Below the pieces are notes generated by a model. It was not told the origin of the DNA and did no database searches. It saw nothing but the letters and a program-made list of their open reading frames with translations. Shown one piece after another: positions 30,963-57,680 of a stretch of DNA of 64,000 nt. The position numbers and the translations under genes are program-made. Position 1 is the first letter of the stretch; every line of letters starts with the position of its first letter. Source of the stretch: Vannielia litorea (GTDB taxonomy: Bacteria; Pseudomonadota; Alphaproteobacteria; Rhodobacterales; Rhodobacteraceae); contig NZ_JAHVJR010000001.1 of the NCBI RefSeq assembly GCF_019801175.1, positions 2,944,580-3,008,579 of the forward strand, in the 5' to 3' direction.

Positions 30963-31035
30963 TGGATGTAGCTCATTCGGGTAGAGCACCAGACTTCTAA
31001 TCTGGGTGTAGCGGGTTCGAATCCCGCCATCACCG
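30962..31035 (+). tRNA. tRNA-Arg(TCT)-like gene; perfect D, anticodon (CTTCTAA loop) and T arms but a mismatched acceptor stem and no encoded CCA
   Basis: D-stem GCTC/GAGC; anticodon stem CCAGA/TCTGG with loop CTTCTAA; T-arm GCGGG-TTCGAAT-CCCGC. The 3' acceptor CATCACC pairs with only 4 of 7 of the 5' ATGGATG. Its 5' end abuts or overlaps the CCA of the previous tRNA. Confidence 0.5.
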
Positions 31036-36643: not shown

Positions 36644-36815
36644 CGGCGCAAGCAGCCCCGGCTTGACTCATCGGCCCTCCCTCTGCCCGAATGGCTTTGG
36701 TGCTCCCGCGCCAGCCCGGAAGCGACCGAAACCAAGGGAGGAGCATGGCAAAACCGCACCGCGCTGACCCAAGGGCGCTTGCCCGCCCGCTTCAGGCCAA
36801 GCCCAAGGCAAAGGC

Positions 36816-39371
36816 ATGATCACCTCGGTCGTCCTCAGCCTGACCATGCTCCTGCTGTCCGCCGGGGCGCTCTATGCCATCTACTCCTCCCAAAGCCTCG
36901 CCCGCCGCCCACCGCTCCGCGATGCCGCCATCGGCACCGCCCTCGGCATCACCGTCGCCCTGCTGATCGAAACACACGGGCTGACCGAGCTTGTCGCGCC
37001 CCTCGTGGCCAAATCCGGCCCACTGGTGCTGGCCGGCTATCTCGGCGGCCCCATCGGCACGGCGGCGGCAGCGGTGTTTGCCCTCGGCGCCCGGGTCTGG
37101 ATGGGCGGGCCGGTGATGGCCGAGGGCCTGCTGCTCATCGCCGGCCTGCTGCTCACCGGCCTCGCCATCCGCGCCCTCGCGCCCCCGCGCGACTGGCCCC
37201 GCGTGCCGCTCCGCCACCTCGCCCTGCTGCTCATCGGGTTCGCCTTCGTGCAATCCATCGTGCCGATGCTTCCCCGCGTCAGCGCCGCGATCGGCGCGCT
37301 TGGCAGCCCTGTCGTCATCCTGCCAGGCATCCTGCTGGGCGGAGCCATCTCGATCGTCCTCACCTGGGCCTTGAACGAGATCGCCCGCCGCACCGCCCAC
37401 GGCCTCACCGAGAAAGACGAGCTGCTCGCCCGCATGGGCATCATCCTGCCCCACGCCGGTGTGGGCACCTTCCGCTACTACGGCGAGAGCAACACCTACC
37501 ACGTCGACGAGGGCTTCATGCGGCTCTACGGCCTGTCGCGCCCTCCCGGCCCGATCGATTACGCCACCTTCGACGCCCTCGTTCACCCCGACGACCGCGC
37601 CCGGATGGCCCGCGCGAAGGACGAGGCCGAGGCCGGCAGCACCGCCCGCGACCAGATCGACATTCGCGCCATCCGGTCCGATGGCACCCCGCTCGAGATC
37701 CGCCTCAACTGGGTGGTGTTCCGCGAGGCCCCTGACGGGCCGGTCGAGATGGTCGGCGTCCACCGCGACCTCACCGATATCCGGCGGGCGCAGCAGGCGC
37801 TCGACAAGGCCGAGCAGCGCTCCTCCACCATCGCCGCCAACCTGCCGGGCGTGGTGGTGCAACTGCTGATCGACAAAGATGGCAGCCGCCGCCTCACCTA
37901 CATCGGCCCCAAGTGCCTCGAGGTCTGGGGCTACCCTGCGGAGGAGGTCATGGCCGACAATTCGCTCATCCGCAGCGGCCAGCCGCCCGAGGATGTCGAG
38001 CGTTTCGTGGCCGACATGCGCGCGGCCCTGGTCCGCGGTGCGCCCATCCGCAGCCGCATCCCGGTCACCGACCGCATCGGCACCACCCGCTGGATGGAGT
38101 TCTATGGCTCCGGCACGCCCCTGCCCGAGGGCGGCCATCAGGTCGATGGCATCTTCATCGATGTCTCCGCCGAGGTCGCCGCACGCGCCGAGGCCGACCA
38201 CAATCTCGAACTGGCCCACAGCGCCCAGCGCAACGAGGCCATCGGCAAGCTCACCGGTGGCGTGGCGCATGATTTCAACAACATCCTCGCGGTGATCCTC
38301 GGCAACCTCGAGCTCCTGCGCGAAGACATAAGCTCGGCTGACAGGCTCTCGCTGATCGATGCCGCCATCGAGGCCAGCCAGCGCGGCGCGCAGCTCACCC
38401 GCGCCATGCTCGCCTTCGCCCGCAAGTCCCGGCTCGATCCCGAGGTGGTCGACCTCAACGACATCGCCCGCCAGTCCGACAACTGGATGCGCCGCGCCCT
38501 GCCCACCTCCGTCTCGGTCGAAACCTCGCTGCTGGGCGGCCTCTGGCCGGTGCTGGCCGACCCGGCCACGCTGGAGAGCGCCCTGCTCAACCTCATCGTC
38601 AATGCCCGCGATGCAATGCGGGGCAAGGGCAGCCTCACCATTGAAACCGCCAATGTGCGCATCGACCAAAGCTACATCGACGCCCGCAATGAAGAGATCG
38701 CGCCGGGCCGCTACGTCATGCTCGCCGTCTCCGACACCGGCACCGGCATCGCGCCCGAAGACCTGCCGCATATCTTCGAGCCGTTTTATTCCACCAAGCC
38801 CCCCGCTTCCGGCTCCGGGCTGGGGTTGTCGATGGTCATGGGCTTCGTCCGCCAGTCCGGCGGCACCGTGCAGGTCTATTCCGAGCCGGGCACCGGCACG
38901 ACCTTCAAGCTTTACTTTCCCGCCGCCGATGGCGCCCCGATGCAGCCCGCCGCGCCCGCGCCCGTGGCCGATGAAACCCCGCCCACCGGCAAGCGCCTGC
39001 TGCTGGCCGAGGATGAGAGCGGCGTGAACGACGTGCTCCTCTCCATCCTCACCCGCGCCGGCTACGAGGTGACCGCCACCGCCACCGGCGATGCCGCCCT
39101 CGCCGCCTTTCTGGAGGAGCCGGAAGCCTTTGATGTGGTGCTGACCGATATCGTCATGCCCGGCGCGCTTCAGGGCACCGGGCTGGCCCGCGCCCTGCGC
39201 GCCCGCCGTCCCGATCTGCCCATCGTGTTCCTCTCGGGCTACGCCTCCGAGGCCACGGTGCATGGCAACGGGCTCCACGCCGACGACATCCGCCTTATGA
39301 AGCCCGTGCCCCGCGACGAGCTGCTCGCCGCGGTCGAGAGGGCAATGGCCCAAGGGGCCACGCCCGGCTAG
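36816..39371 (+). CDS. Hybrid sensor histidine kinase/response regulator (membrane N-domain, PAS domains, HisKA, HATPase, C-terminal receiver)
   Basis: H-box AHDFNNILAVILGNLELL. N, G1 and G2 boxes (NLIVNARDAM...DTGTGI...GSGLGLSMV). Receiver with D (VVLTDIVMPG). Confidence 0.85.
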   Translation: MITSVVLSLTMLLLSAGALYAIYSSQSLARRPPLRDAAIGTALGITVALLIETHGLTELVAPLVAKSGPLVLAGYLGGPIGTAAAAVFALGARVWMGGPVMAEGLLLIAGLLLTGLAIRALAPPRDWPRVPLRHLALLLIGFAFVQSIVPMLPRVSAAIGALGSPVVILPGILLGGAISIVLTWALNEIARRTAHGLTEKDELLARMGIILPHAGVGTFRYYGESNTYHVDEGFMRLYGLSRPPGPIDYATFDALVHPDDRARMARAKDEAEAGSTARDQIDIRAIRSDGTPLEIRLNWVVFREAPDGPVEMVGVHRDLTDIRRAQQALDKAEQRSSTIAANLPGVVVQLLIDKDGSRRLTYIGPKCLEVWGYPAEEVMADNSLIRSGQPPEDVERFVADMRAALVRGAPIRSRIPVTDRIGTTRWMEFYGSGTPLPEGGHQVDGIFIDVSAEVAARAEADHNLELAHSAQRNEAIGKLTGGVAHDFNNILAVILGNLELLREDISSADRLSLIDAAIEASQRGAQLTRAMLAFARKSRLDPEVVDLNDIARQSDNWMRRALPTSVSVETSLLGGLWPVLADPATLESALLNLIVNARDAMRGKGSLTIETANVRIDQSYIDARNEEIAPGRYVMLAVSDTGTGIAPEDLPHIFEPFYSTKPPASGSGLGLSMVMGFVRQSGGTVQVYSEPGTGTTFKLYFPAADGAPMQPAAPAPVADETPPTGKRLLLAEDESGVNDVLLSILTRAGYEVTATATGDAALAAFLEEPEAFDVVLTDIVMPGALQGTGLARALRARRPDLPIVFLSGYASEATVHGNGLHADDIRLMKPVPRDELLAAVERAMAQGATPG

Positions 39372-46162: not shown

Positions 46163-47061
46163 GCCGTTTCCTCTGCATCGGTGAATGCATGGTCGAATTG
46201 GCCCAAACCGGGCCTGACACCTACCGCCGCGGCTTCGCAGGCGACACCTTCAACACCGCATGGTACGCCCGCCGCTGCCTCCCCGAGAGCTGGGATGTCA
46301 GCTACGCCACCGCGGTCGGCACAGATGCCACCTCAGCCGAGATGACCGCCTTCATGCAGGCCGAGGGTGTCAGCCCCGTCACCCGCGAAATCCCGGATCG
46401 CACGGTGGGCCTCTACATGATCGCCACCAACGACGGCGAGCGCAGCTTCTCCTACTGGCGCAGCCACTCCGCCGCCCGCCTGCTGGGCGAAGATACCGAC
46501 TGGCTCGCCAGCACCTTCGCCACCGCCGAGATGATCCACTTCTCCGGCATCACCCTCGCCATCCTCGCCCCCGACCAGCGCAGCCGCCTGTGCAATGCCC
46601 TGCGCTCCTCCCGCGCCACCGTCAGCTTCGACACCAACCTGCGCCCGCGCCTCTGGGAGAACGAGAACGCCATGAAGCGCGGCCTCACCCAAGGCGCCTC
46701 CGCCGCCTCAATCGTGCTGCCCAGCTTCGATGAGGAAACCGCCCTCTTCGGCGACCCCACGCCAGAGCACACCATCGCCCGCTACCGCGAGGCCGGGGCC
46801 TCCATCATCGCGGTGAAAAACGGCGCCGAGGCGCTCACGCTGGCCACGCCCGAGGGCATCACCGAGATCGCCTGCGAGCCGGTCGACAAGGTGGTGGACA
46901 GCACCGCCGCAGGCGACAGCTTCGCCGCCCGCTTCCTCGCCGGTCTCGCCCAGCAGGAGCCGCCCGCCGAGGCCGCCCGCGCCGCCATGGGTCTCGCCGC
47001 CAAAGTCATCCGCGCGCCCGGCGCGCTCGTGCCAGATATCTTCTCAGGAGACAGCAAATGA
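46159..47061 (+). CDS. kdgK: PfkB-family sugar-acid kinase (2-dehydro-3-deoxygluconokinase-like)
   Basis: N-terminal GECMVEL, C-terminal TAAGDSFAARFLAG anion-hole motif. Confidence 0.75.
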   Translation: MSRFLCIGECMVELAQTGPDTYRRGFAGDTFNTAWYARRCLPESWDVSYATAVGTDATSAEMTAFMQAEGVSPVTREIPDRTVGLYMIATNDGERSFSYWRSHSAARLLGEDTDWLASTFATAEMIHFSGITLAILAPDQRSRLCNALRSSRATVSFDTNLRPRLWENENAMKRGLTQGASAASIVLPSFDEETALFGDPTPEHTIARYREAGASIIAVKNGAEALTLATPEGITEIACEPVDKVVDSTAAGDSFAARFLAGLAQQEPPAEAARAAMGLAAKVIRAPGALVPDIFSGDSK

Positions 47062-48017
47062 ACATCCTCATCATCGGCGGCGCAGGTGTCGTCGGGCAAA
47101 AGCTCGCCACCTCCCTCGCCGCCAAGGGCACCCTGCGCGGCAAGCCGATCAGCCGCCTCATCCTCGCCGATGTGGTCGCCCCCGCCGCCGTCGAGGCGCC
47201 CTTCGCCGTCGAAACCACAAAGTGTGACATCACCGACCCGGCCTCGATGGAAGCGATCATCACCGCCGAGACCGATGTGATCTACTTGCTGGCCGCCATC
47301 GTCTCCGGTCAGGCCGAGGCCGAGTTCGAGCTGGGCTGGAACATCAACATGCACGGCACCATCAACGTGCTGGAGCGCGCCCGCACCCTCGGCACCTGCC
47401 CGGTAGTCGTGTTCTCGTCGTCGATGGCCGTCTACGGCGGCGACACGCCCGACCCGATCACCGATTTCTCCTCGCTGAACCCGCAAACCTCCTACGGTGC
47501 GCAAAAGGCCATCGGCGAGATGATGGTCACCGACTACTCCCGCAAGGGCTACATCGATGGCCGCGCCTTCCGCCTGCCCACCATCTCGGTGCGCCCCGGC
47601 AAGCCCAACGCGGCGGCCTCCGGCTTCATGTCGTCGATCTTCCGCGAGCCGCTCAACGGCCAGCCCGCCAACTGCCCCGTCGATGACAGCTTCCCGCACT
47701 ACTACCTCAGCCCGCGCAAATGCGTGGAGAACCTCGTGATCGGCGCCGAGATCCCGGCGGAGGATTTCGGCCCCAACCGCGCCGTGCAACTGCCCGGCCG
47801 CATGTGGACAATCCGCCAATGCATCGACGCGATGACCGCCGTCGCGGGCCCCGAGCCCGCAAAGCTCATCACCTGGAACGACGATCCGGTGATCCAGAAC
47901 ATCGTGAAAGGCTGGCGCTTCGATCTGCGGCCTGAAAAGGCCCGGCGCCTCGGCATGTCGGCGGACGAGACCTTCGAAGACAACATCCGCTACTACATCG
48001 AAGACGATCGCCCCTGA
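47058..48017 (+). CDS. NAD-dependent epimerase/dehydratase-family dehydrogenase (acid-sugar dehydrogenase, DenD-like?)
   Basis: IIGGAGVVGQKL Rossmann motif and a YGAQK catalytic YxxxK. Confidence 0.75.
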   Translation: MNILIIGGAGVVGQKLATSLAAKGTLRGKPISRLILADVVAPAAVEAPFAVETTKCDITDPASMEAIITAETDVIYLLAAIVSGQAEAEFELGWNINMHGTINVLERARTLGTCPVVVFSSSMAVYGGDTPDPITDFSSLNPQTSYGAQKAIGEMMVTDYSRKGYIDGRAFRLPTISVRPGKPNAAASGFMSSIFREPLNGQPANCPVDDSFPHYYLSPRKCVENLVIGAEIPAEDFGPNRAVQLPGRMWTIRQCIDAMTAVAGPEPAKLITWNDDPVIQNIVKGWRFDLRPEKARRLGMSADETFEDNIRYYIEDDRP

Positions 48018-48105
48018 TACGGGCCACGCTTCGGCCCTCAAAGCCTCATCGCAGCCCATGCTGCGGTGAGGCTGCTCCAGCCCGCCAGACCCGGCCCAAG
48101 CCTCC

Positions 48106-48900
48106 ATGCGCACGCTGCTCACCGTCCTCCTGCTGACCCTCGCCGCCGCCTCGACGCAGGCCGCACCCCGCACCCTCTGCACCCTCGTGATCGACGCGGC
48201 CACAGGCGCCGCGCTGCACGAGGCGGGCGATTGCGACACGCGCACCACCCCCGCCTCCACCTTCAAACTCGCCCTCGCCATCATCGGTTTCGAGGAGGGG
48301 TTTCTTACCGGCCCTCACGCTCCTGTCCTGCCCTTCCGCCCCGGTGACCCGGACTGGGGCGGCGCCAACTGGACGCGCGAAACAGGCCCAACCGATTGGC
48401 TCCGCTACTCCGTCGTCTGGTATTCGCAGCGCATCACCCACGCGCTCGGGGAGGCCACCCTCACCCGCCATGCCCGCGCCTTTGGCTATGGCAACGCCGA
48501 CTTCTCCGGTGATCCCGGCTTCGGCAACGGGCTCGACCGCGCCTGGATCGCCTCATCGCTGCAAATCTCCCCGCGCGAGCAAACCGACTTCCTGCGCGGT
48601 CTGGTCACCGCCACCCTGCCCGTCTCGCCCGAGGCCATGGCGCAGACCCGCGCCATCACGCAGCGCTTCGAGGCGGGCGGCTGGGTGATCCACGGCAAGA
48701 CCGGCGGCGCCTACCCGCGCCGTGCCGACCGGAGCTTCGATTATGCTGCGGGCTGGGGCTGGTTCGTCGGCTGGGCCGAGCAAGAGGGGCGCACCCTCGT
48801 CTTCGCCCGGCTCACACAGGCCCGCGAGCGCACATCGCGCTCCCCCGGCCTTCTGACGCGCGATAGCCTGCTGGCCGACTGGCCCAAGCTTGCGCCCTAG
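48106..48900 (+). CDS. Class D (OXA-family) beta-lactamase
   Basis: Signal peptide. All class D boxes present: STFK (PASTFKLAL), YGN (FGYGNADF), SxV region, KTG (HGKTGG), WxxG (GWFVGW). Confidence 0.85.
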   Translation: MRTLLTVLLLTLAAASTQAAPRTLCTLVIDAATGAALHEAGDCDTRTTPASTFKLALAIIGFEEGFLTGPHAPVLPFRPGDPDWGGANWTRETGPTDWLRYSVVWYSQRITHALGEATLTRHARAFGYGNADFSGDPGFGNGLDRAWIASSLQISPREQTDFLRGLVTATLPVSPEAMAQTRAITQRFEAGGWVIHGKTGGAYPRRADRSFDYAAGWGWFVGWAEQEGRTLVFARLTQARERTSRSPGLLTRDSLLADWPKLAP

Positions 48901-48944
48901 CGGCGCCTCGCCCGCCGGCCGGAACCGGGCGAGAGACCGCCCGA

Positions 48945-49070
48945 TCCGTTAACACGTCGCCGTCATGCACATCTGCATATGCATAGGATGTGCATGGGAT
49001 GTGCATCAGTTGTGCATCAACAAAATATAGCGTTAACGCCCATCCGGCCCCGCCGCACAGGCATTAACGC
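48945..49070. repeat. AT-rich convergent intergenic island with six TGCAT/ATGTGCAT direct repeats and three (G)TTAACGC motifs
   Basis: Seen directly: gtcATGCACatcTGCATATGCATaggATGTGCATgggATGTGCATcagttGTGCATcaa, flanked by cGTTAACacg, cGTTAACGCc and cATTAACGCa. Confidence 0.5.
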
Positions 49071-49076
49071 AAAGCC

Positions 49077-50015
49077 TCAGTTGACCGGCGTCAGCAGGTC
49101 GTTTCCGGCCAGAAAGGCGCTGATGTTGTCGCGCTGAAGCTTCGCCATCGCCGCCCGCGTCTCCACCGTGCCCGAGCCCTGGTGCGGCTGGATCACCACG
49201 TTGTCGAACTCGTAGAACCGCGCGTCGATCTTCGGCTCGTTCACGAACACATCCAGCCCCGCGCCATAGATCCCGCCGCTCTTCAGCGCGGCGATCAGAG
49301 CCTCTTCGTCCACCGTCGAGCCGCGCGAGATGTTCACCAGGATGCCGCGCGGGCCCAGCGCCTCAAGCACCTCTTTCGAAACGATATTTTCGGTCGCTTT
49401 GCCACCCACCGTGGCCACGATCAGGTAATCGACAGCGGCGGCCAGCGCCTCGGGGCTGTCATGATAGGTCCAGCCCGGCGTCTCCTTCTCGGAGCGGCTC
49501 CAGTAGTGCAGATCCATCTTGAACGGCACCAGCCGCTCGGCAATCTCGCGCCCGATCCGGCCAAGGCCAAGGATGCCCGCGCGGCCCCCGCTGACCTTGC
49601 GGTTCAGCCGATATTCACCCTTTTCGGCCCATGATCCGGAGCGCGCCCACTGGCTCGCATGTTCCATCTCCCGGCCGCACATCAGCAGCATCGCCACGGC
49701 AAGGTCAGCCACGTCATCGTTGAGCACGTCAGGGGTGTTGGTCACGCGAATATCGCGCTCCGAGGCGGCCGCCACGTTAATGGAGTCGTAACCAACCCCG
49801 AAGTTGGCGATGACCCCAAGGTTCGGCAGCAGGTCCATCGCCTCGGCGCCAAACGGCTTGTGCCCCTTGAAGCCCGCAGCGGTGATGCCCGCCCGCGTGG
49901 CTTCGTCGAGGCTGCCGATCTCGGTGGTTTCGGCCAGAAAAACCGGGTCGAACGTCTCTTTCAGCTTGGCCAGATCGGCCTCGCTGTAGTTCCCGATTGC
50001 GATCACCTTGCTCAT
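49077..50015 (-). CDS. D-isomer-specific 2-hydroxyacid dehydrogenase (glyoxylate/hydroxypyruvate reductase family)
   Basis: GLGRIGREIAERL NAD motif and the catalytic Arg/Glu/His triad region (ISRGSTVDE...HQGSGT). Confidence 0.85.
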   Translation of the reverse strand: MSKVIAIGNYSEADLAKLKETFDPVFLAETTEIGSLDEATRAGITAAGFKGHKPFGAEAMDLLPNLGVIANFGVGYDSINVAAASERDIRVTNTPDVLNDDVADLAVAMLLMCGREMEHASQWARSGSWAEKGEYRLNRKVSGGRAGILGLGRIGREIAERLVPFKMDLHYWSRSEKETPGWTYHDSPEALAAAVDYLIVATVGGKATENIVSKEVLEALGPRGILVNISRGSTVDEEALIAALKSGGIYGAGLDVFVNEPKIDARFYEFDNVVIQPHQGSGTVETRAAMAKLQRDNISAFLAGNDLLTPVN

Positions 50016-50089
50016 GGCCTGTTCCTCCCCGGCGGCGCGTCAAATGGTATACCATTCCCTCCCACCGCACCGCCGGGGAGTCAAGCCGC

Positions 50090-50932
50090 TCAGCCTTCGC
50101 AGATCTCCTGCACCGACTTTTTCACCGCCTCCAGCGAGAAGACCTGATCCAGCCAGTCTTCCTTGAAGATCACGCTCTTGGCCTTGTCGATCGCCATCAG
50201 GGCGCCATCGCTGAACTTGCCCTCCGGGAAGATGCCAAAGGCAATCGCCAGCTCGATCTTCAGATGCCCCAGCACGAAGTCATGCGCCGCCGCCTCCGGC
50301 ACCCCCATGCTCACCGCCCGGTCGGTCGCATCGCGCAACGCAAGGCTCATCGTGGCCGCCACCGTCTCGCTCAGCGCAGGCTCCAGCACGGCGATGTTTT
50401 CCAGCGTGCAGCGATGGCTCCGGGCCACCGGCGCATAGATGATCTTCGCGATCTCCTCGCAGAGCGCATAATGCTCCTCCGGCCCCTGAATCAGCGCGCA
50501 AACGATCCCCTGCGGCGCCGCGATCCCGCCGAAGTAATCCGCCTGCGCCTCCTTGGTCTCCTGCACCTCGAGGATATGCGGGTGGCAGGGATGGGTGCAA
50601 AAGTAGGTGATGTCATCGCGCTCCGGCATCTCCCCTGCATAGGGCGCCGCGGCGTCCAGCACGATCACCGCCGCGCCGGGCTTCAGCTTGTCCACGAAGC
50701 CATGGGTGATCTTGCCGATCAGCCGGTCCGGCACCGCCATCAGCACCACATCGGCGTCTGAAATCGCGTTGTCGCCGTCGGTCACGGCCTCCACGCCCAC
50801 CTCGTCCAGCAGCCGTTTGCGGCCCACTTCTGACACTTCCACATGGTCAATCTCGAACCGCGTGGGCTTGAGGTTCTGCGCCAGCCGAACGCCCATCTTT
50901 CCCCCCGCACCGAGCAAAGCAACCTTGGTCAT
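50090..50932 (-). CDS. NAD(P)-binding dehydrogenase-like protein (Rossmann N-domain plus 6PGDH-C-like domain), function unknown; candidate oxidoreductase partner of the DUF1537 kinase/RLP
   Basis: MTKVALLGAGGKMG N-terminus. First gene upstream of the kinase, with a 2-nt gap. Longer ORF to 50977 is possible. Confidence 0.55.
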   Translation of the reverse strand: MTKVALLGAGGKMGVRLAQNLKPTRFEIDHVEVSEVGRKRLLDEVGVEAVTDGDNAISDADVVLMAVPDRLIGKITHGFVDKLKPGAAVIVLDAAAPYAGEMPERDDITYFCTHPCHPHILEVQETKEAQADYFGGIAAPQGIVCALIQGPEEHYALCEEIAKIIYAPVARSHRCTLENIAVLEPALSETVAATMSLALRDATDRAVSMGVPEAAAHDFVLGHLKIELAIAFGIFPEGKFSDGALMAIDKAKSVIFKEDWLDQVFSLEAVKKSVQEICEG

Positions 50933-50933
50933 C

Positions 50934-52247
50934 TCATTCTCCTCCTGCGGCACCACCGCCGCGTTTGATCCATCCAAAATAATCGTCCGATCCCATCTGC
51001 CCGCCCTTCAGCGCCAGCTCGAGCCCGGCCAAATTCTCATCCTCCGAATGCGCCCTGAGCAGCGCCGCACCGGGGATCGTCGGGGCCAGTGCGGTAAAGG
51101 CATAAAGCCCCAGCTCGCGGCTCGCGTGGCCACTGGTATCCCCGCCCGAGATCACCGCCCGCTTCAGCCCCGTCTGCCGCAGCAGCCGCGCCAGCACCTT
51201 GCCCAGCGCCGCGCCGATCCGCGCATTCGCCTCTTCCATCCCGCCTGCCGGCACCGCCGCCCGCAGCCGCGCCACAGCAGGGTCATCCGGCCCCTTCGCG
51301 GTGTAGATCAGCGGGTCCCGCCCGGCTTCCAGAGCCTTGAGCGCCGTCTCATAGGCCCCCGTAGCCTCGCCCTTCACGGCGGCCACCGCATCCAGCTCGA
51401 TCCCCTCGAACCCATGCGCCTCAGCCCATGCAATCTGCGCCGCCGTCACCGGCGAAACCGAGCCGGAGACAGCCAGCATCCGCTCCACCGGCCCGGCGCT
51501 CTCGCCCCGGTCCTCCGCAGGCAGCCATCCCTGCGCGCGCCAATGCTCCACCAGCGCGTATTCCACGCCTTGCGAACCGACGGCAAACACCGGCGACTGG
51601 TCCCACATCCGCTGCCCGACCCGGCCCATATGCGCATCCGTCATCGCATCGAATGACCAGACCTCCGCCTCCGGCGAACCGTCCAAGTCCTCCAGCGACA
51701 CCAGCCCAAAGCTCTTGCCCGTCTGCTTCGCCAGATGCCGCGCCACATCGCTCTCATCCATCGGCGTCACCGGATGCCGTGCCATCACCGGGTGCCGGTC
51801 GAGCCGGAACACCCCGCCGGGGCCGGACGCAAACAAATGCCCGAAAGCCTGATAACGCCGCATCTTCGGCGCGGCGAGCAGACAGGGGATGAACGGCCCT
51901 TTCACCACCTCCGCCCCAAGGTCGATTGCCTTGCCGATCGAGCCGATCTCGGGCGATGAGTCCAAGGTCGAGCAAGTTTTGTAATGCACCACCCGCGCAC
52001 CCGTTCCGGCCAGAAAGCGGAACACCCCCGGCAACTCCCGCTCCATCCAGCCGGGCGAATGCGAGCGCGCCGTGGTCGCTACCCCAACCGCCCGCACGCC
52101 GGGAAACCGCGCCAGCTGCGCCTCCGTTGGCACATCCAAGAACAGCACCGCAGGCACCCCCGCGAACTCCAGCACCTCCATGCTGGCCGCCGAGCCGGTG
52201 AAGTCATCCCCCACCCAGCCGATCAGGGTGCCGCCCGGCAGGCTCAC
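50934..52247 (-). CDS. Four-carbon acid-sugar kinase family protein (DUF1537 + DUF4392; OtnK/OiaK-like), paralogue 1
   Basis: GDDFTGSAAS N-motif and ISGGDTSGHASRELG C-motif, homologous to 55643..56881. Start set at GTG overlapping the RLP stop (GTGA). The 126-aa Gly/Arg-rich upstream extension of the raw ORF is rejected. Confidence 0.75.
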   Translation of the reverse strand: MSLPGGTLIGWVGDDFTGSAASMEVLEFAGVPAVLFLDVPTEAQLARFPGVRAVGVATTARSHSPGWMERELPGVFRFLAGTGARVVHYKTCSTLDSSPEIGSIGKAIDLGAEVVKGPFIPCLLAAPKMRRYQAFGHLFASGPGGVFRLDRHPVMARHPVTPMDESDVARHLAKQTGKSFGLVSLEDLDGSPEAEVWSFDAMTDAHMGRVGQRMWDQSPVFAVGSQGVEYALVEHWRAQGWLPAEDRGESAGPVERMLAVSGSVSPVTAAQIAWAEAHGFEGIELDAVAAVKGEATGAYETALKALEAGRDPLIYTAKGPDDPAVARLRAAVPAGGMEEANARIGAALGKVLARLLRQTGLKRAVISGGDTSGHASRELGLYAFTALAPTIPGAALLRAHSEDENLAGLELALKGGQMGSDDYFGWIKRGGGAAGGE

Positions 52248-53488
52248 CCGAAGGCCTCCAGCGCGCCCTTGAGCGCGGGTCGTGTCGCAGCATAGTCCTC
52301 CGCCGCCACACCCGCCTGCGCCGCCTCCCAAGCCTCCCGCAATGAGGCCACGCCTGCCGCCGGCCCATCCGGGTGCGCCATGATCCCGCCGCCCGCCGCG
52401 TGGATGCAATCTGCGTGGCCGACGCGGGCATAGGTCTCCGCCGCCTGCACCGCCGTCTGGCCCGAGGAGAACACCGGCATCGCCACGCAGGGCTTGTCCT
52501 CCCACATTGGCGTGCCGACCGAGAGCGCCGAGGCCACCACGCTGTCGTCCGCCTCCGAGAACTTGTTGCGCAGCCCGTTCACGTGCATGTGGTCCGCCCC
52601 GGCCAGCCGCCAGAGCTTGCTCCACGCAGTGTAGTCCCAGCCCAGCATGTCGGCCCGGCTCAGGTAGCCCCAGCCGCAGCGGTGCGCATGGATCGGCAGC
52701 TCCGAATGGCGCGAGAAGGCGAGGAAACCCGCAAAGCCCACCGAGTTCAGCGAAACCATCGCACAGGTCGCCCCAAGCTCCAGCAGCAGGTCATGCCGCC
52801 ACCGCATCTCGTCCACCTCGCCCGTCAGGTTGAAGGCAAACATCACCTTCTTGCCGGTCTTCTCGGCATGGTCGTTCAGCACGCGCATCACCGCCCGCGC
52901 CCGCGCGTCGAACGGGCAGTTCGGCCCGTCGCTCTGCAACTCGTCATCCTTGATGAAGTCGATGCCCGCCGCGGCCAGATCACCGGCCAGCGAAGCCGTC
53001 TCCTCCGGCCCAAAGCCCACAGAGGGCTTTACGATGGTGCCGATCAACGGCCCTCTCTCCACGCCGCTCAAACGCCGCGTCCCCTCGATCCCAAACTTCG
53101 GCCCCGGATGGGCCGCGCCAAACTCCCGCGGCAGCCGGATATCGCGCAGCCGCAGCCCCGAGAATTGCCGCAACTCAAAGAGGTTGCCTGCCACCGTCGC
53201 CACGAGGTTGGGGATCGACGCCCCGATATTCCCCATCGGCCAACTCAACGTCACCTTCGCCCGCGTATACCGCTCCCCCGTGGCCCCACCGCCCAGCGAC
53301 GGCTCGGCCACCTCGCCCACGACCTCCAGCGCCTCCACCCGCGCCGCCGAGCGCTCGCGCAGCTCCGGCGTCTCCCCCGGCACAGAAACAAAGGTGCCGG
53401 AACTCTGCTCCCCCGCCATCGCCTCCGCCGCCTTGGCCGGGTCCACCGGGGTTTCGATCAGGTAGTCCGCTTCGATGCGTTCACTCAT
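52244..53488 (-). CDS. RuBisCO-like protein (form IV RuBisCO large-subunit homologue)
   Basis: 414 aa with a RuBisCO large-chain TIM-barrel signature (GLRLRDIRLP, GTIVKPSVGF, IDFIKDDE with the carbamylated-Lys region KDDE, HAHR, GGG). Adjacent to a DUF1537 kinase. Confidence 0.8.
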   Translation of the reverse strand: MSERIEADYLIETPVDPAKAAEAMAGEQSSGTFVSVPGETPELRERSAARVEALEVVGEVAEPSLGGGATGERYTRAKVTLSWPMGNIGASIPNLVATVAGNLFELRQFSGLRLRDIRLPREFGAAHPGPKFGIEGTRRLSGVERGPLIGTIVKPSVGFGPEETASLAGDLAAAGIDFIKDDELQSDGPNCPFDARARAVMRVLNDHAEKTGKKVMFAFNLTGEVDEMRWRHDLLLELGATCAMVSLNSVGFAGFLAFSRHSELPIHAHRCGWGYLSRADMLGWDYTAWSKLWRLAGADHMHVNGLRNKFSEADDSVVASALSVGTPMWEDKPCVAMPVFSSGQTAVQAAETYARVGHADCIHAAGGGIMAHPDGPAAGVASLREAWEAAQAGVAAEDYAATRPALKGALEAFG

Positions 53489-54198
53489 TGGAAGTGATCC
53501 TGGTGATAGAGTTCATTGGCGCGCTCGAGGTGGTCTCGCATGGCCTTCGCCGCCGCGCCCTCATCCCCTGCTGCAATCGCATCGAGTATCGCGCGGTGCT
53601 CGGTGAGCGTCAGTTGCTCCAACCCGCGCTTGCGCACCGCCTCTGCGTGAAAGTCGCGCAACCAATCGAACACGCCGGCAGCGAGGGTCTCGAAAATGGG
53701 GTTAGCCGAAATGGCCGCGATGCGACGGTGGAACTTTCCGTCGATCTCAAGAAACTTCTCCGGCTCTTCCGCCGAAAGCTCCTGCGCCGCCAGCAGCGCC
53801 TCCAGCGAGGCGATGTCCACCTCTGTCCGGCGGCGTGCGGCGATCCGGGCCATCTCGGCCTCCAGCGCCGCGCGGGCCTCCTTCAGGTGGTCCATCGAGG
53901 AGGTATGCGCGAGCAGGTGCCGCACCCCGGTGCCCAGTTGCCCGATCAGCCCATCGAGCGACGGCTCCGCCACCCTCGGGCGCCCGCCATGCCGGATTTC
54001 GATCACGCCGCGATGCTGGAGCGCCTGCATCGCCTCGCGGATCGCCGGCCGCCCAATCTCATATCGCGCCATCAGCTCCCGCTCGGAAGGCAAGGCATCG
54101 CCCGGGCCAAGGCCGTCCTCGCGGATCAACCGCAGCAGACGATCCTGCACCTCATCGGCCAGCTTCCGGGGTTTTATTTGATCTGGTAAGCTCATCAT
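53485..54198 (-). CDS. GntR/FadR-family transcriptional regulator
   Basis: N-terminal GntR HTH (LPSERELMARYEIGRPAIREAMQAL) plus FadR-type C-domain. Start overlaps the RLP start region by 4 nt. Confidence 0.8.
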   Translation of the reverse strand: MMSLPDQIKPRKLADEVQDRLLRLIREDGLGPGDALPSERELMARYEIGRPAIREAMQALQHRGVIEIRHGGRPRVAEPSLDGLIGQLGTGVRHLLAHTSSMDHLKEARAALEAEMARIAARRRTEVDIASLEALLAAQELSAEEPEKFLEIDGKFHRRIAAISANPIFETLAAGVFDWLRDFHAEAVRKRGLEQLTLTEHRAILDAIAAGDEGAAAKAMRDHLERANELYHQDHFQ

Positions 54199-54246
54199 AC
54201 CAGTTGCTAGCGCAAGCGTCCGCACCGATCAAGAGCCTTGCTTGGC

Positions 54247-55014
54247 TCAGATGCCTTGCGCCGCCTTCAGCCAGCCCAGCGTCGGCTCCGTCGGCCCGCC
54301 GGGCTTGTATTCCGCCCCCAGCGGGGACTCCCAGCCAAGCGCCTTCAAGTGCCTGTAGATATGCGTGAAATTCACCTCGCCATGATCCGGCGCACCCCGG
54401 TCCGGCACCGCCGCGATCTGGATATGCCCGATCTTCGGCAAGAGCCGCTCCAACCGGTGGCTGAGGTCCCCTTCCATCAACTGCACATGGTAGCAGTCGA
54501 ACATGATCTTCAGGTTCTCCGCCCCCACCTCGGCCAGAATCGCCTCCGCCTGCGCGGTGGTCGAAAGGAAGTATCCCGGCGCGTCATAGTGGTTGATCGG
54601 CTCGATCAGAATGGTCTTTCCCATTCCCGCCGCCTTGCCGCAAGCATAGCCCAGCGCCTCGACAAAGGTGTCATGGTCGCCTCCGAAGCCCGCCATCACA
54701 TGCACCTTCCCGGTGCCGCTCGCCTCGGCATAGGCCAGCGCCTCGTCGATGGCATCCCGCGCCTCCGCCTCACGCCCCGGCACCGCCGAAAAGCCCATCT
54801 CGCGCTTCGCCGCATCGCCCCGCGAGGCATTGAGGCCCAGCATCTCCAGCCCGGTCTCGGCCAGCGCATCGGCCACCTCGCCCGCAGGCACCGCATAGGG
54901 CCAATGGCACTCCACCGCGTCGAACCCCGCCGCCTTGGCGGCCCGGATCGCTTGCGGAAGCGGCAACTCGCTCCAGAGGAACCCGAGGTTGGCCGAAAAT
55001 CTCATGCGTCCCAC
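54247..55014 (-). CDS. otnI: Hydroxypyruvate isomerase family protein (2-oxo-tetronate isomerase OtnI-like)
   Basis: TIM-barrel xylose-isomerase-like. MRFSANLGFLW... and conserved Glu/His metal ligands (ILIEPINHYD, FDCYH). Confidence 0.8.
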   Translation of the reverse strand: MGRMRFSANLGFLWSELPLPQAIRAAKAAGFDAVECHWPYAVPAGEVADALAETGLEMLGLNASRGDAAKREMGFSAVPGREAEARDAIDEALAYAEASGTGKVHVMAGFGGDHDTFVEALGYACGKAAGMGKTILIEPINHYDAPGYFLSTTAQAEAILAEVGAENLKIMFDCYHVQLMEGDLSHRLERLLPKIGHIQIAAVPDRGAPDHGEVNFTHIYRHLKALGWESPLGAEYKPGGPTEPTLGWLKAAQGI

Positions 55015-55646
55015 TCCAGATCGAACTTGCTGACCAGCGCCTGAACCTGCCCGTCGTCGAGGCCCCGCGCGCCCATGCCCCGCGTCATCAGCGCCAGCTT
55101 GGCCGTGGCTTCCAACTCCTCGATGGCGTTGCAGGCCGCCTCCACGTCCTTGCCCGCCACCACCGGCCCGTGGTTGGCCAGCATCACCGCCGATCGTTTA
55201 CCCGCCAGCCCGCGCACCGCCTCGCCCATCGCCGGATCGCCTGGCAGGAAAAAGGGCAGCAGCTTCACCCGGCCCAACTGCATCACCCCATAGGGGGTGA
55301 GCGGCGGCAAAAAGTCGTCCTCGTCGGCCTCCAGCATCGAGAGCGCAACCGAGTGGCACGAATGCAGGTGCACCACCGCCCCCGCCGTGCCGCGCGTGTC
55401 GTAAAACGCCGTGTGCAGCGCCATTTCCTTGGTTGGCTTGTCGCCGCCCACGTGCTGCCCCGCGCTGTCGAACCGCGCCAGCCGCCCCGGGTCGAGCCGG
55501 CCAAAGCTGGTGCCGGTGGGCGAGACCAGCAGGCCGCCATCCTCGGTGCGGGCCGAGATATTGCCGGTCGAGCCGTGGGTCAGCCCCCGGTCGAAAAGCG
55601 ATTTTGCCAGCATGCAAAGCTGTTCGCGCAGGGCCGTCTCGCTCAT
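55002..55646 (-). CDS. otnC: Class II aldolase/adducin-family decarboxylase (3-oxo-tetronate 4-phosphate decarboxylase OtnC-like)
   Basis: LTHGSTGNISAR plus His metal ligands (AVVHLHSCHS). Start set at MSETALREQL (codon 157 of the raw ORF). Confidence 0.8.
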   Translation of the reverse strand: MSETALREQLCMLAKSLFDRGLTHGSTGNISARTEDGGLLVSPTGTSFGRLDPGRLARFDSAGQHVGGDKPTKEMALHTAFYDTRGTAGAVVHLHSCHSVALSMLEADEDDFLPPLTPYGVMQLGRVKLLPFFLPGDPAMGEAVRGLAGKRSAVMLANHGPVVAGKDVEAACNAIEELEATAKLALMTRGMGARGLDDGQVQALVSKFDLEWDA

Positions 55647-56881: not shown

Positions 56882-56882
56882 G

Positions 56883-57680
56883 CTATTCCTCGTGAATTCC
56901 GTCAGCCGTGAAGGCCCCGCCCTGGTAAACCACCTGCGGCGCATCGATGGCAGGCATCTCCTCCATCTGCTCCACCACGGCGCGGTAATCTTCCGCCCGG
57001 TCCTGCGGTTCCCAGCCGAGGAAGCCGACCTCGCGGTTGTCCCACCAGCCGGTCGCGTTGTTGGAGGCGCCGTAGACGATCGGGCAGCCGATCTTCGGCG
57101 CGCGGAACACGCACTCGATCAGCCGCACGAAATCATCGTAGCTCATCCAGCTCGCCAGCATCCGCCGGTTCTTCGGCTCAGGGAAGCAGGAGCCGATCCG
57201 CACGCTCGCGGTCTCGATGCCGAATTTGTTGTAATACATCGACGCCATCGCCTCGCCGAAGACCTTGCTCACACCATAGAGCCCGTCCGGCTGGGTCAGC
57301 GCATTGGCATCGAGCCGCGTCGTCTGCTTGTGAAAGCCCACCGCGTGGTTGGAACTGGCAAAGATCACCCGGTTGCAGCCGGTGTTACGACAGGCCTCGT
57401 ATAGGTTGAACACCCCGTCGATATTGGCGTTGCGGATGACCGACCACGTATCTTCAATCGACCGGCCGCCCAGATGCACGATCCCGTCGCAGCCGCGCAC
57501 GAGGTCTTCAACCGCCGCCTTGTCGCCCAAGTCGCAAACCACGACCTCCTCGTTCTCCCCGGCAGGCGGCATCTCGACCACGTCAGAGAGCCTCAGGGTC
57601 TTCGCCATATGTTTCAGGCGGTCGCGGCACATCGAGCCAAGGCCGCCAGCGGCGCCGGTGATCAGCAGTCGGTTCATCAT
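56883..57680 (-). CDS. Short NAD-dependent epimerase/dehydratase-family dehydrogenase (uronate dehydrogenase-like / acid-sugar dehydrogenase)
   Basis: LLITGAAGGLG Rossmann motif and YGVSK catalytic motif. 265 aa, the size class of uronate dehydrogenases. Confidence 0.7.
   Translation of the reverse strand: MMNRLLITGAAGGLGSMCRDRLKHMAKTLRLSDVVEMPPAGENEEVVVCDLGDKAAVEDLVRGCDGIVHLGGRSIEDTWSVIRNANIDGVFNLYEACRNTGCNRVIFASSNHAVGFHKQTTRLDANALTQPDGLYGVSKVFGEAMASMYYNKFGIETASVRIGSCFPEPKNRRMLASWMSYDDFVRLIECVFRAPKIGCPIVYGASNNATGWWDNREVGFLGWEPQDRAEDYRAVVEQMEEMPAIDAPQVVYQGGAFTADGIHEE

What the first reader, a model, noticed from the sequence alone, without database searches (positions are those of the whole stretch)
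48106..48900. Chromosomal class D (OXA-type) beta-lactamase with all catalytic boxes intact
The 264-aa secreted protein carries STFK, YGN, KTG and WxxG in correct order and spacing. It is embedded among catabolic genes with no mobile element nearby. This is consistent with an intrinsic, species-level OXA enzyme of marine Rhodobacteraceae. It is relevant as an environmental resistance-gene reservoir.
Basis: partly seen in the sequence, partly recalled or inferred. Interest (0 to 1): 0.55.

Follow-up and report, generated by a model that had tools for sequence, protein, structure and literature searches.

The report
Chromosomal class D beta-lactamase gene
This is an ordinary, intact, already-annotated class D (OXA-type) beta-lactamase gene that sits without any mobile element at the end of a sugar-acid breakdown gene cluster in the marine bacterium Vannielia, one more example of the known reservoir of such genes in environmental bacteria.

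Summary
It passes NCBI's curated class D beta-lactamase model (306 bits against a cut-off of 280). It is about 52% identical to the biochemically and structurally characterised OXA-57 of Burkholderia pseudomallei, and its AlphaFold model superposes on OXA-57 with TM 0.95. Every catalytic residue is present: S51, K54, S102-x-V104, Y128-G-N, W147, K198-T-G and GWFVGW. It has a Sec-type signal peptide and no BlaR1 sensor architecture.

The identical protein is already in RefSeq as "class D beta-lactamase [Vannielia litorea]" (WP_222470755.1). No transposase, integrase or plasmid relative was found, and GC and GC3 match the neighbours.

In five Vannielia/Oceanicola genomes the gene directly follows the D-erythronate dehydrogenase gene denD. 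Its synonymous divergence is in the same range as its neighbours' (omega 0.2-0.3). Four related denD loci outside the clade lack it. It is therefore a genus-level chromosomal gene, most simply explained by an old single-gene gain.

It falls below the cut-off of every named OXA family tested, so it is an unnamed lineage of a known kind. Activity and expression are untested. Interest is low.

The parts
48106..48900 (+). Coding sequence of the class D (OXA-type) beta-lactamase precursor, 264 aa plus stop
   Evidence: ORF. NCBIfam NF000270 at 306.1 bits against a cut-off of 280. Pfam PF00905. PDB best hit OXA-57 (9hpt), E=3e-82. 100% identical to RefSeq WP_222470755.1. AlphaFold pLDDT 92.1, TM 0.95 to OXA-57 and 6ni0.
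48106..48162 (+). Predicted Sec signal peptide (residues 1-19, MRTLLTVLLLTLAAASTQA, cleavage before A20-P21)
   Evidence: Hydrophobic core and TQA|AP site read from the sequence. Low-confidence helix 2-13 ahead of the folded domain in the model. The solved OXA-57 chain aligns only from residue 22 onwards. No signal-peptide predictor was run.
48250..48267 (+). PASTFK motif: nucleophile Ser51 and Lys54 (the lysine that is carbamylated in class D enzymes); DBL positions S70/K73
   Evidence: P49, S51, T52 and K54 are invariant in 34 homologues of 51-79% identity. The role of the equivalent S53/K56 is shown in the OXA-57 crystal structure.
48409..48417 (+). S102-V-V104, the SxV box (DBL S118/V120), which acts as a proton relay
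   Evidence: S102 and V103 are invariant. Equivalent to OXA-57 S104/V106.
48487..48495 (+). Y128-G-N130 box (DBL Y144)
   Evidence: G129 is invariant in A4; Y128 is invariant in A5.
48505..48549 (+). Omega loop carrying a six-residue type-II insertion (DPGFGN relative to OXA-48), Trp147 (DBL W157, hydrogen-bonds the Lys carbamate) and Ile148
   Evidence: BLASTP gap against OXA-48. W147 is invariant. OXA-57 W149/I150 roles. Type-II loop definition from bioRxiv 10.1101/2025.01.20.633977.
48697..48705 (+). K198-T-G200 box (DBL K208)
   Evidence: Invariant in homologues.
48757..48774 (+). GWFVGW (the GWxxGW fingerprint), preceded by an insertion of about 8 residues in the beta9-beta10 hairpin loop, as in OXA-57 and OXA-427
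   Evidence: G218, W219 and G222 are invariant. Loop insertion noted for OXA-57 and OXA-427.
48018..48105 (+). 88-bp spacer between the denD stop and the OXA start. It holds a 14-bp-stem hairpin (48042-48073). No sigma-70-like promoter and no Shine-Dalgarno sequence (CCTCC precedes the ATG).
   Evidence: Inverted repeat I6. Fold -42.8 kcal/mol, z = -3.5. Promoter/terminator scan found nothing. In L001, L086 and L082 the spacer is only 17-25 bp, so the hairpin segment is a later addition in the window/L002 lineage.
47058..48017 (+). denD, D-erythronate dehydrogenase. It is the last gene of the co-directional catabolic array that the OXA gene directly follows.
   Evidence: NCBIfam NF043036 at 387.8 bits against a cut-off of 325. 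Names given by sources. Linkage to OXA is conserved in L001, L002, L082 and L086.
48901..49076 (.). Spacer between the convergent OXA and 2-hydroxyacid dehydrogenase genes. Most of it (about 48945-49076) is native to the site and was not brought in with the OXA gene.
   Evidence: The same element is present in the empty-site locus L083 and in L001, L002 and L086. On the - strand, about 49030-49070 forms a hairpin followed by UAUAUUUUGUUG, which looks like the terminator of the dehydrogenase gene.
49077..50015 (-). D-isomer-specific 2-hydroxyacid dehydrogenase gene, convergent with OXA. In outgroup loci it directly faces denD.
   Evidence: Pfam families recorded for the orthologues. NCBIfam hits all below cut-off.

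Best explanation
The ORF encodes a periplasmic class D (OXA-type) serine beta-lactamase. It belongs to the branch that holds OXA-57/OXA-42, OXA-22, OXA-114, OXA-45, OXA-427 and AFD-1.

Inferred mechanism, by homology with OXA-57 and OXA-48:
- The precursor is exported by Sec and cleaved after Ala19.
- In the mature enzyme, Lys54 is carbamylated by CO2 in a hydrophobic pocket (Val104, Trp147, Ile148), and the carbamate is held by Trp147.
- The carbamate acts as general base for Ser51 to acylate the beta-lactam ring, and then for water to deacylate it.
- Ser102 relays protons, and Lys198-Thr-Gly200 forms the strand that lines the active site.
- The likely substrates are penicillins and early cephalosporins, with at most slow carbapenem turnover. 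This profile is extrapolated, not tested.

Genomic history, shown here: the gene is a stable chromosomal gene of the Vannielia/Oceanicola clade. It lies immediately after denD at the 3' end of an acid-sugar catabolic array, has co-diverged with its neighbours, is under purifying selection, and has no trace of a mobile element. Related loci outside the clade have the same or a similar denD cluster without it, which favours an old single-gene gain.

Expression is probably by read-through from the denD array or from an unrecognised weak promoter. This is inference.
For: Family
- NF000270 class D equivalog scores 306.1 against a cut-off of 280, E=1.3e-91.
- PDB best hits are OXA-57 (9hpt) and B. 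thailandensis class D (6ni0), E about 3e-82, over the full mature length.
- AlphaFold pLDDT 92.1 and pTM 0.88. Foldseek TM 0.95 and rmsd 1.2-1.6 A to 6ni0 and 9hpt; all 50 best PDB matches listed are class D enzymes.

Catalytic residues
- S51, K54, S102, V104, Y128, W147, I148 and K198-T-G200 align with OXA-57 S53, K56, S104, V106, W149, I150 and K201-T-G203, and with OXA-48 S70, K73, S118, Y144, W157 and K208.
- They are invariant in 34 homologues of 51-79% identity.
- OXA-57 is a proven enzyme with a fully carbamylated lysine.

Chromosomal and stable
- The site and the upstream neighbours are the same in L001, L002, L082 and L086; the downstream neighbours are also the same in L001, L002 and L086.
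- OXA dS is 0.16/0.47/0.59 against L002/L001/L082. The neighbours' ranges are 0.10-0.26, 0.28-0.73 and 0.38-0.56. OXA omega is 0.20-0.32.
- GC 0.71 and GC3 0.87, like the neighbours.
- No transposase or integrase in 40 scanned ORFs.
- No plasmid homologue at 60% identity or more.

Gain
- L083, L084, L088 and L089 carry denD without an OXA gene. L083 and L084 also have no tblastn remnant.
- None of the 79 other OXA-homologue loci shares a neighbour with the window at an orthologue-like level; the few neighbour hits are 25-40% identical.
Against: - No biochemical or phenotypic data exist for this protein or for any Vannielia strain (searches found none).
- No promoter-like site and no Shine-Dalgarno sequence precede the gene. 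In this strain a strong hairpin separates it from denD, so it may be poorly expressed.
- Omega is 2-3 times that of the neighbours, meaning the constraint is relaxed.
- Two of the seven published class D fingerprint motifs are in variant form: FxxW appears as F77..W84 and FWL as AWI. OXA-57 shows the same variants.
- In Lupo et al. 2022, 3 of 10 uncharacterised class D homologues gave no active enzyme in E. coli.
- The gain-versus-loss inference rests on four outgroup loci of unknown exact phylogenetic position.
Confidence: 0.87

Rival explanations
1. The protein is a beta-lactam-sensing or penicillin-binding domain (BlaR1/MecR1-type sensor or a PBP fragment) that binds but does not turn over beta-lactams.
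For: The OXA fold is shared with BlaR1 sensor domains. Pfam sees only the generic PF00905 transpeptidase domain. A weak NCBIfam BlaR1 match exists at 68.7 bits.
Against: - BlaR1 scores 68.7 against a cut-off of 400, and the match covers only the C-terminal part of a 585-position profile.
- The protein is 264 aa with a cleavable signal peptide and has no membrane or zinc-protease domain.
- No blaI/mecI-like repressor lies nearby; the only regulator close by is a GntR in the catabolic cluster.
- All 50 best structural matches listed are beta-lactamases.
- The deacylation-relevant residues W147, V104 and I148 are conserved.
Confidence: 0.03
2. The gene is a silent or decaying relic. The protein folds, but it is not expressed at a useful level or has lost useful activity, and it contributes nothing to resistance.
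For: - No promoter-like site and no Shine-Dalgarno sequence.
- A strong hairpin lies between denD and the gene in this strain.
- Omega of 0.20-0.32 is higher than for most neighbours.
- In one V. litorea-labelled assembly (L085) a different ORF follows denD, although the contig ends 318 bp later.
Against: - The reading frame is intact in at least five genomes, across dS up to about 0.6 for the three pairs measured (L002, L001, L082), with omega well below 1.
- All catalytic residues are invariant.
- GC3 is 0.87, as in expressed neighbours.
- In L001, L086 and L082 the start codon is only 17-25 bp after denD, which fits co-transcription.
Confidence: 0.08
3. The gene is a recently acquired, potentially mobile resistance determinant (integron cassette, transposon or island cargo) rather than an intrinsic gene.
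For: - OXA genes are often cassette- or transposon-borne.
- The gene tree mixes Rhodobacterales, Hyphomicrobiales, Beta- and Gammaproteobacteria, so the family has moved horizontally in the past.
- The gene is absent from the same site in outgroups.
Against: - No integrase, transposase or recombinase domain in 40 ORFs scanned across 64 kb.
- The only tRNA genes lie 17 kb away.
- GC and GC3 are the same as the neighbours'.
- dS is in the same range as that of flanking genes in three pairwise comparisons, so the gene has been resident since the clade's common ancestor.
- No attC-like GTTRRRY core follows the stop codon (read).
- The downstream repeat element is native to the empty site.
- The nearest plasmid homologues are 55% identical or less, and most are on megaplasmids.
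Confidence: 0.02

Closest known systems
OXA-57 (OXA-42 family), chromosomal class D beta-lactamase of Burkholderia pseudomallei (PDB 9HPT; bioRxiv 10.1101/2024.12.23.630153), and its B. thailandensis homologue 6NI0
   Same: - Best sequence and structure match: E=3e-82; about 52% identity in the Foldseek alignment; TM 0.95.
- Same catalytic residues, including the AWI form of the omega-loop motif.
- Same conserved Cys pair, same long omega loop and same long beta9-beta10 loop.
- Chromosomal and species-intrinsic.
   Different: - Only about half of the residues are identical.
- It scores 305.8 against a cut-off of 540 for the OXA-42-family model, so it is not a member of that family.
- The host is a marine alphaproteobacterium rather than a betaproteobacterium.
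- The genomic context differs.
- Activity is untested here.
AFD-1, class D beta-lactamase of Agrobacterium fabrum/tumefaciens (PDB 6NHU, 6V6N)
   Same: Chromosomal class D enzyme of an alphaproteobacterium with a type-II omega loop. TM 0.93-0.94 and 44-45% identity.
   Different: More distant in sequence than OXA-57. Comes from Hyphomicrobiales. I have no kinetic data for it in hand.
OXA-919 of Brucella (Ochrobactrum) pseudogrignonensis (PMC8549353)
   Same: Precedent for a species- or genus-wide chromosomal OXA lineage in Alphaproteobacteria, discovered by genomics. It has a type-II omega loop and an 8-residue beta9-beta10 insertion.
   Different: A distant lineage: the OXA-919-like model scores 203 bits against a cut-off of 575.
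OXA-48 (reference for DBL numbering; PDB 3HBR)
   Same: All core motifs align: S70, K73, S118, V120, Y144-G-N, W157, K208-T-G and GWxVGW. Same fold (TM 0.78).
   Different: - 31% identity.
- OXA-48 has a short type-I omega loop and a short beta9-beta10 loop.
- It is plasmid- and transposon-borne in Enterobacterales and is an efficient carbapenemase.
Environmental 'DBL-homologues' surveyed by Lupo et al. 2022 (PMC9045261)
   Same: Chromosomal, Sec-exported, far from transposases and found in non-clinical bacteria. This is the typical situation: only 5.6% of chromosomal homologues lie near a transposase.
   Different: I could not establish whether this Vannielia lineage falls in one of their 62 clusters. 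None of their ten tested enzymes is known to be from this clade.

Membership tests
Class D (OXA) serine beta-lactamases | SxxK box with nucleophilic Ser and the Lys that is carbamylated (PASTFK; DBL S70/K73) | tested here: met
   PASTFK at residues 49-54. It aligns to OXA-48 S70/K73 and OXA-57 S53/K56. Invariant in homologues.
Class D (OXA) serine beta-lactamases | SxV box (DBL S118-x-V120) | tested here: met
   S102-V-V104.
Class D (OXA) serine beta-lactamases | YGN box (DBL 144-146) and K-T-G box (DBL 208-210) | tested here: met
   Y128-G-N130 and K198-T-G200. KTG is invariant.
Class D (OXA) serine beta-lactamases | Omega-loop Trp that holds the Lys carbamate (DBL W157), and the GWxxGW strand motif | tested here: met
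   W147 aligns to OXA-48 W157 and OXA-57 W149. GWFVGW at 218-223.
Class D (OXA) serine beta-lactamases | Literal FxxW and FWL fingerprint motifs (bioRxiv 10.1101/2025.01.20.633977) | tested here: inconclusive
   The region reads F77-RPGDPD-W84..W89, and A146-W-I148 in place of F-W-L. OXA-57, a proven class D enzyme, has the same variants (YRDSYIAW and AWI). The paper's table of motif definitions is an image that is not held, so the tolerated variation could not be checked.
Class D (OXA) serine beta-lactamases | Score above the curated cut-off of NCBI's class D equivalog model | tested here: met
   NF000270 bla_class_D_alt scores 306.1 bits against a cut-off of 280.
Class D (OXA) serine beta-lactamases | Class D fold: an alpha/beta domain plus an all-alpha domain, as a stand-alone secreted protein of about 27 kDa | tested here: met
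   AlphaFold pLDDT 92.1. TM 0.95 to 6ni0 and 9hpt; all 50 best matches listed are class D enzymes. Signal peptide present and no extra domains.
Class D (OXA) serine beta-lactamases | CO2-dependent Lys carbamylation and hydrolysis of beta-lactams | not testable with these tools
   This needs purified enzyme, kinetics with and without bicarbonate, and MICs. It is inferred only from OXA-57.
OXA-42/OXA-57 family (a named OXA family) | More than 90% identity to a family member (family definition in bioRxiv 10.1101/2025.01.20.633977), or a score above the NCBIfam family cut-off | tested here: not met
   About 52% identity to OXA-57. NF040531 scores 305.8 against a cut-off of 540. All other named OXA-family models are also below their cut-offs.
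BlaR1/MecR1 beta-lactam sensor-transducers | N-terminal multi-pass membrane zinc-protease domain plus C-terminal sensor domain; score above the model cut-off | tested here: not met
   The protein is 264 aa with only PF00905. NF000326 scores 68.7 against a cut-off of 400 and matches profile positions 383-567 only.
Mobile (cassette-, transposon- or plasmid-borne) OXA genes | Adjacent integrase, transposase or attC site, or location on a plasmid; composition unlike the host | tested here: not met
   No such Pfam domain in 40 ORFs of the window. GC and GC3 match the host. Plasmid homologues are all below 60% identity. Synteny and dS match the neighbours.

The most novel reading that the evidence does not exclude
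The beta-lactamase gene may have been captured as the terminal gene of the D-erythronate/acid-sugar catabolic array. The start codon lies 17-25 bp after the denD stop in three genomes, there is no promoter or regulator of its own, and the linkage to denD holds even where the downstream side is rearranged. Its expression would then be set by carbon source through read-through transcription, not by beta-lactam exposure. The enzyme may also share the slow carbapenem turnover of OXA-57. That would be an unusual regulatory arrangement for an intrinsic beta-lactamase, and a possible unnamed carbapenem-hydrolysing lineage in marine bacteria.
Probability: 0.15. Interest if true: 0.35.

Novelty: new member of a known kind. 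Interest (0 to 1): 0.15.

Why it matters
[quoted passage not shown] The practical value is modest. It could be given an OXA number if characterised, and the clean filled-site versus empty-site comparison shows that such genes can enter a chromosome as single genes and leave no mobile-element scar. It does not change any concept and opens no long-standing question.

Tried and rejected
- Exact-sequence look-up of the window protein and of P0001 and P0003 in the contig index: not on record. Context was obtained through P0002, P0005 and P0244 instead.
It was redone with A5.
- The promoter/terminator scan of 47800-49200 found nothing.
- Rfam found nothing in 47500-49500 at E<=1.
- Integron cassette idea: no GTTRRRY core follows the stop codon. 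The GTTAAC-bounded repeat element downstream is also present in the empty-site locus L083, so it did not come with the gene.
- Target-site duplication idea: a 10-bp direct repeat CAAAGCCTCA flanks the segment (48039 and 49070). By my rough estimate about one exact 10-mer pair is expected by chance in 1.25 kb, another unrelated 10-mer pair is present, and the repeat is absent from the short-junction genomes. I rejected it as chance.
- Plasmid search: only hits of 55% identity or less.
- Literature on Vannielia/Oceanicola litoreus antibiotic phenotype: nothing in the held library.
- Second beta-lactamase-family gene (PF00144, 35441-36643): no class C model matched, so it is not an AmpC.
- The NJ tree has no bootstrap values and a star-like deep structure. 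I used it only to show that the Vannielia clade is monophyletic and that taxa are interleaved elsewhere.
Full report
**Observation.** The window has a single ORF at 48106..48900 on the + strand: ATG start, 264 aa, and the first start codon after the upstream in-frame stop (sequence). The N-terminus MRTLLTVLLLTLAAASTQA|AP has one basic residue, a hydrophobic core and an A-x-A-type cleavage site. It has no twin-arginine motif and no lipobox (read by eye; no predictor was available).

**What it is.**
- NCBI's curated equivalog model for class D beta-lactamases (NF000270, bla_class_D_alt) scores 306.1 bits against a cut-off of 280, E=1.3e-91.
- Every named OXA-family model is far below its cut-off; the best is OXA-42-like at 305.8 against 540. 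The BlaR1 sensor model scores 68.7 against 400.
- Pfam sees only the generic PF00905 domain.
- Against solved structures, the best matches are 9HPT and 6NI0 (E about 3e-82, residues 22-262), followed by 6HUH (OXA-427), 6NHU/6V6N (Agrobacterium) and 4GN2 (OXA-45).
- 9HPT is OXA-57 of Burkholderia pseudomallei. That enzyme hydrolyses penicillins and first-generation cephalosporins and turns carbapenems over slowly. Its crystal structure shows a fully carbamylated K56 hydrogen-bonded to S53 and W149 (bioRxiv 10.1101/2024.12.23.630153).
- In the HMMER alignment, the OXA-57 residues S53, K56, S104, V106, W149, I150 and K201-T-G203 correspond to S51, K54, S102, V104, W147, I148 and K198-T-G200 here.
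BLASTP against it gives 31% identity with S51=S70, K54=K73, S102=S118, Y128=Y144, W147=W157 and K198=K208. [quoted passage not shown] These are the 'type-II' omega loop and the long hairpin loop described for AFD-1/OXA-1 and for OXA-57/OXA-427 in the DBL numbering paper (bioRxiv 10.1101/2025.01.20.633977).
- Five of that paper's seven fingerprint motifs are exact. FxxW and FWL appear in the same variant forms as in OXA-57 (F77..W84 and AWI).
- An AlphaFold2 model built on 32 sequences has mean pLDDT 92.1 and pTM 0.88. It superposes on 6NI0 and 9HPT with target-normalised TM 0.95 and rmsd 1.2-1.6 A. All 50 best PDB matches listed are class D beta-lactamases.
- In an alignment of 34 homologues (51-79% identical), the invariant columns include P49, S51, T52, K54, S102, V103, G129, W147, K198, T199, G200, G218, W219 and G222, plus a Cys pair (C25, C43) that probably forms a disulfide (the disulfide is inference).

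**Already annotated.** The protein is 100% identical to RefSeq WP_222470755.1, 'class D beta-lactamase [Vannielia litorea]'. Its 90% cluster also holds proteins from Vannielia sp. SX4 and a second V. litorea strain. NCBI taxonomy places Vannielia in Rhodobacterales, Paracoccaceae. The family is large: 1602 proteins at E<=1e-20 in the word-indexed search. Genome loci come from Rhodobacterales, Hyphomicrobiales, Burkholderiales, Neisseriales and Pseudomonas.

**Surroundings.**
- Upstream, on the same strand, are genes for an FAD oxidase (GlcD-like), an FAH-family hydrolase, an SMP-30/gluconolactonase-type lactonase, a KDG-kinase-like PfkB protein and D-erythronate dehydrogenase DenD. DenD is above its NCBIfam equivalog cut-off (387.8 against 325).
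- Downstream, on the opposite strand, are a D-2-hydroxyacid dehydrogenase, a PGDH_C protein, a DUF1537-type kinase (OiaK-like, below cut-off), a RuBisCO-like protein (OiaX-like, below cut-off), a GntR regulator, a xylose-isomerase-like protein, a class II aldolase and a second DUF1537 kinase.
- These are acid-sugar catabolic genes, so 'embedded among catabolic genes' is correct.
- I called 58 ORFs by third-position GC and scanned 40 of them against Pfam. The rest of the window holds flagellar export and rod genes, SMC, a catalase, an acetolactate-synthase-like TPP enzyme, a lytic transglycosylase, an ECF sigma factor, a hybrid histidine kinase and more sugar-acid genes. There is no transposase, integrase or recombinase. 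About 13 small ORFs, mostly inside the flagellar cluster, were not scanned.
- The only tRNA genes are two in tandem at 30889-31031, 17 kb away.
- GC of the gene (0.71) and its GC3 (0.87) match the surroundings: GC 0.63-0.73 in sliding windows and GC3 0.78-0.90 in neighbouring genes.
- tblastn against 72,556 plasmids finds nothing at 60% identity or more. The best hits (53-55%) are mostly on large replicons (a 586-kb Pseudomonas luteola plasmid, Ralstonia megaplasmids, a 4.6-Mb Shinella replicon), plus one 109-kb plasmid of Mariluticola halotolerans.

**History of the locus.**
- The same arrangement, denD | OXA | 2-hydroxyacid dehydrogenase (convergent), is present in three genomes: Oceanicola sp. 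502str15 (L001), Oceanicola sp. m2 (L002) and the type strain V. litorea DSM 29440 (L086).
- Oceanicola sp. D3 (L082) keeps the whole upstream array and denD-OXA but has unrelated genes downstream.
- None of the 79 other genome loci carrying a homologue shares an orthologous neighbour with the window. Only a few weak neighbour hits of 25-40% identity appear.
- Nei-Gojobori estimates give OXA dS = 0.16, 0.47 and 0.59 against L002, L001 and L082. This is within the range of the flanking genes (0.10-0.26, 0.28-0.73 and 0.38-0.56). Omega is 0.20, 0.32 and 0.30, against 0.01-0.26 for the neighbours.
- The gene has therefore diverged together with its neighbours since the common ancestor of these genomes. 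It is under purifying selection, though more relaxed than for the metabolic enzymes.
- Two metagenomic loci have an otherwise identical gene order and denD products 82% and 75% identical to the window's (L083, L084). In them, denD directly faces the 2-hydroxyacid dehydrogenase gene, with gaps of 240 bp and 24 bp. tblastn finds no trace of an OXA gene.
- Two further denD loci (Rhodobacteraceae bacterium THAF1, L088; and L089) also end their array with denD and no OXA gene.
- Together with the lack of denD linkage in any other OXA-bearing genome, the simplest account is a single-gene gain at the 3' end of the denD array in the Vannielia/Oceanicola ancestor. Loss in the outgroups is not formally excluded.
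- A neighbour-joining tree (no bootstrap) shows the Vannielia clade as monophyletic on its own branch. Elsewhere, Rhodobacterales, Hyphomicrobiales, beta- and gammaproteobacterial sequences are interleaved, which fits old horizontal movement of the family.
- One assembly labelled V. litorea (GCA_018424695.1, L085) has a different ORF after denD, but its contig ends 318 bp later. I could not resolve this.

**Expression (inference).**
- In L001 and L086 the OXA start codon is 17 bp after the denD stop, and in L082 it is 25 bp after. In the window and L002 the spacer is 88 bp because of an extra segment holding a 14-bp-stem hairpin at 48042-48073. The region folds at -42.8 kcal/mol, z = -3.5 against shuffles.
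- No sigma-70-like promoter or canonical terminator is detected in 47800-49200.
- The bases before the ATG are CCTCC, conserved in L001 and L082 and not a Shine-Dalgarno sequence.
- No AmpR/LysR-type or BlaI-type regulator is adjacent.
- The gene most likely depends on read-through from the denD array or on a promoter these simple scans do not recognise. In this strain the hairpin may damp that read-through.

**Comparison with what is known.** Large-scale surveys have already shown two things. Class D homologues are widespread in non-clinical bacteria, and they are mostly chromosomal, with only 5.6% of the chromosomal ones near a transposase. In addition, seven of ten untested lineages gave detectable beta-lactamase activity (Lupo et al. 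2022, PMC9045261). Alphaproteobacterial precedents exist in AFD-1 of Agrobacterium (6NHU) and OXA-919 of Brucella pseudogrignonensis (PMC8549353). The present gene is a typical example. It belongs to the class, but not to any named OXA family under the family criteria checked here (more than 90% identity, or the NCBIfam family cut-offs).

**Verdict.** It is a new, unnamed and uncharacterised member of a well-known kind, already annotated correctly in RefSeq. Interest is low (0.15). The most novel reading not excluded is that the gene rides as terminal gene of the acid-sugar operon, so that carbon source controls beta-lactamase level, possibly with OXA-57-like slow carbapenem hydrolysis. I put that at about 0.15 probability and modest interest.

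Noticed in passing
window 48945-49076 (repeats at 48977-49017): A conserved non-coding element lies between the convergent OXA and 2-hydroxyacid dehydrogenase genes. It has three direct repeats of (A/T)TGTGCAT spaced exactly 11 bp apart and is bounded by two GTTAAC sites. The array is unique in the window (3 matches against 0.17 expected). It is conserved in L001, L002, L086 and in the empty-site locus L083, so it is native to the site. Rfam finds nothing. The right-hand part, on the - strand, folds as a hairpin followed by UAUAUUUUGUUG, which looks like the dehydrogenase gene's terminator. The 11-bp-phased repeats suggest a protein-binding array or a small RNA, and remain unexplained.
   Followed up: partly
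window 48042-48073: A 14-bp-stem hairpin (AGCCTCATCGCAGC / GCTGCGGTGAGGCT) with no U-tract lies in a segment of about 70 bp that is present only in the window and L002. The other genomes have a 17-25 bp denD-OXA junction, and D3 and L085 carry a different short hairpin (GGGTGGGCA..TGCCCACC) at the same place. It may be a REP-like or RNA-stabilising element that turns over quickly.
   Followed up: partly
window 35441-36643 (- strand): A second gene of a 'beta-lactamase' superfamily lies 12 kb upstream: 400 aa, Pfam PF00144 at 98 bits. It matches no NCBIfam class C beta-lactamase model; its only hit is a weak one to a 3-succinylated cholic acid synthase model. It is probably a generic serine hydrolase or esterase, not an AmpC. 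The orthologous position in L001 also carries a PF00144 gene.
   Followed up: partly
window 30889-31031: Rfam finds two tandem tRNA genes (30889-30959 and 30965-31031; 58.6 and 56.2 bits). ARAGORN reports only one, with an undetermined anticodon ('tRNA-???', anticodon tt). The two tools disagree, and anticodon identity was not resolved.
   Followed up: no
window 49077-56944 (- strand): The gene cluster resembles the D-apionate / four-carbon acid-sugar pathways: an OiaK-like DUF1537 kinase (451 bits, cut-off 700), an OiaX-like RuBisCO-like protein (437.5 bits, cut-off 700), a PGDH_C protein, a GntR regulator, a xylose-isomerase-like protein, a class II aldolase and a second DUF1537 kinase. Both key enzymes are well below the equivalog cut-offs, so the substrate may differ from D-apionate.
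   Followed up: partly
L085 (V. litorea-labelled assembly GCA_018424695.1), 6961-7278: In this assembly denD (product 90% identical to the window's) is followed by an unrelated ORF (MRLHPSPNDTELRV...) instead of the OXA gene, and the contig ends 318 bp after denD. The site is either variable within the clade or there is an assembly or binning problem.
   Followed up: partly
window 36792-39371 and other places: Very long ORFs overlap on opposite strands, for example 36816..39371 + (851 aa, a real hybrid histidine kinase) against 36792..39353 - (853 aa), and 46782..48284 - (500 aa) running antisense over the PfkB gene, denD and the OXA start. These are the usual shadow ORFs of a 67% GC genome. 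Third-position GC picks out the real frame.
   Followed up: yes
window 1-23300: The first third of the window is a flagellar gene cluster (MotA, FlhA/FHIPEP, FliR, FlhB, FliI-type ATPase, FlgF/FlgG rod proteins, FlgH), interrupted by SMC, catalase and GNAT genes. It is unrelated to the finding.
   Followed up: no
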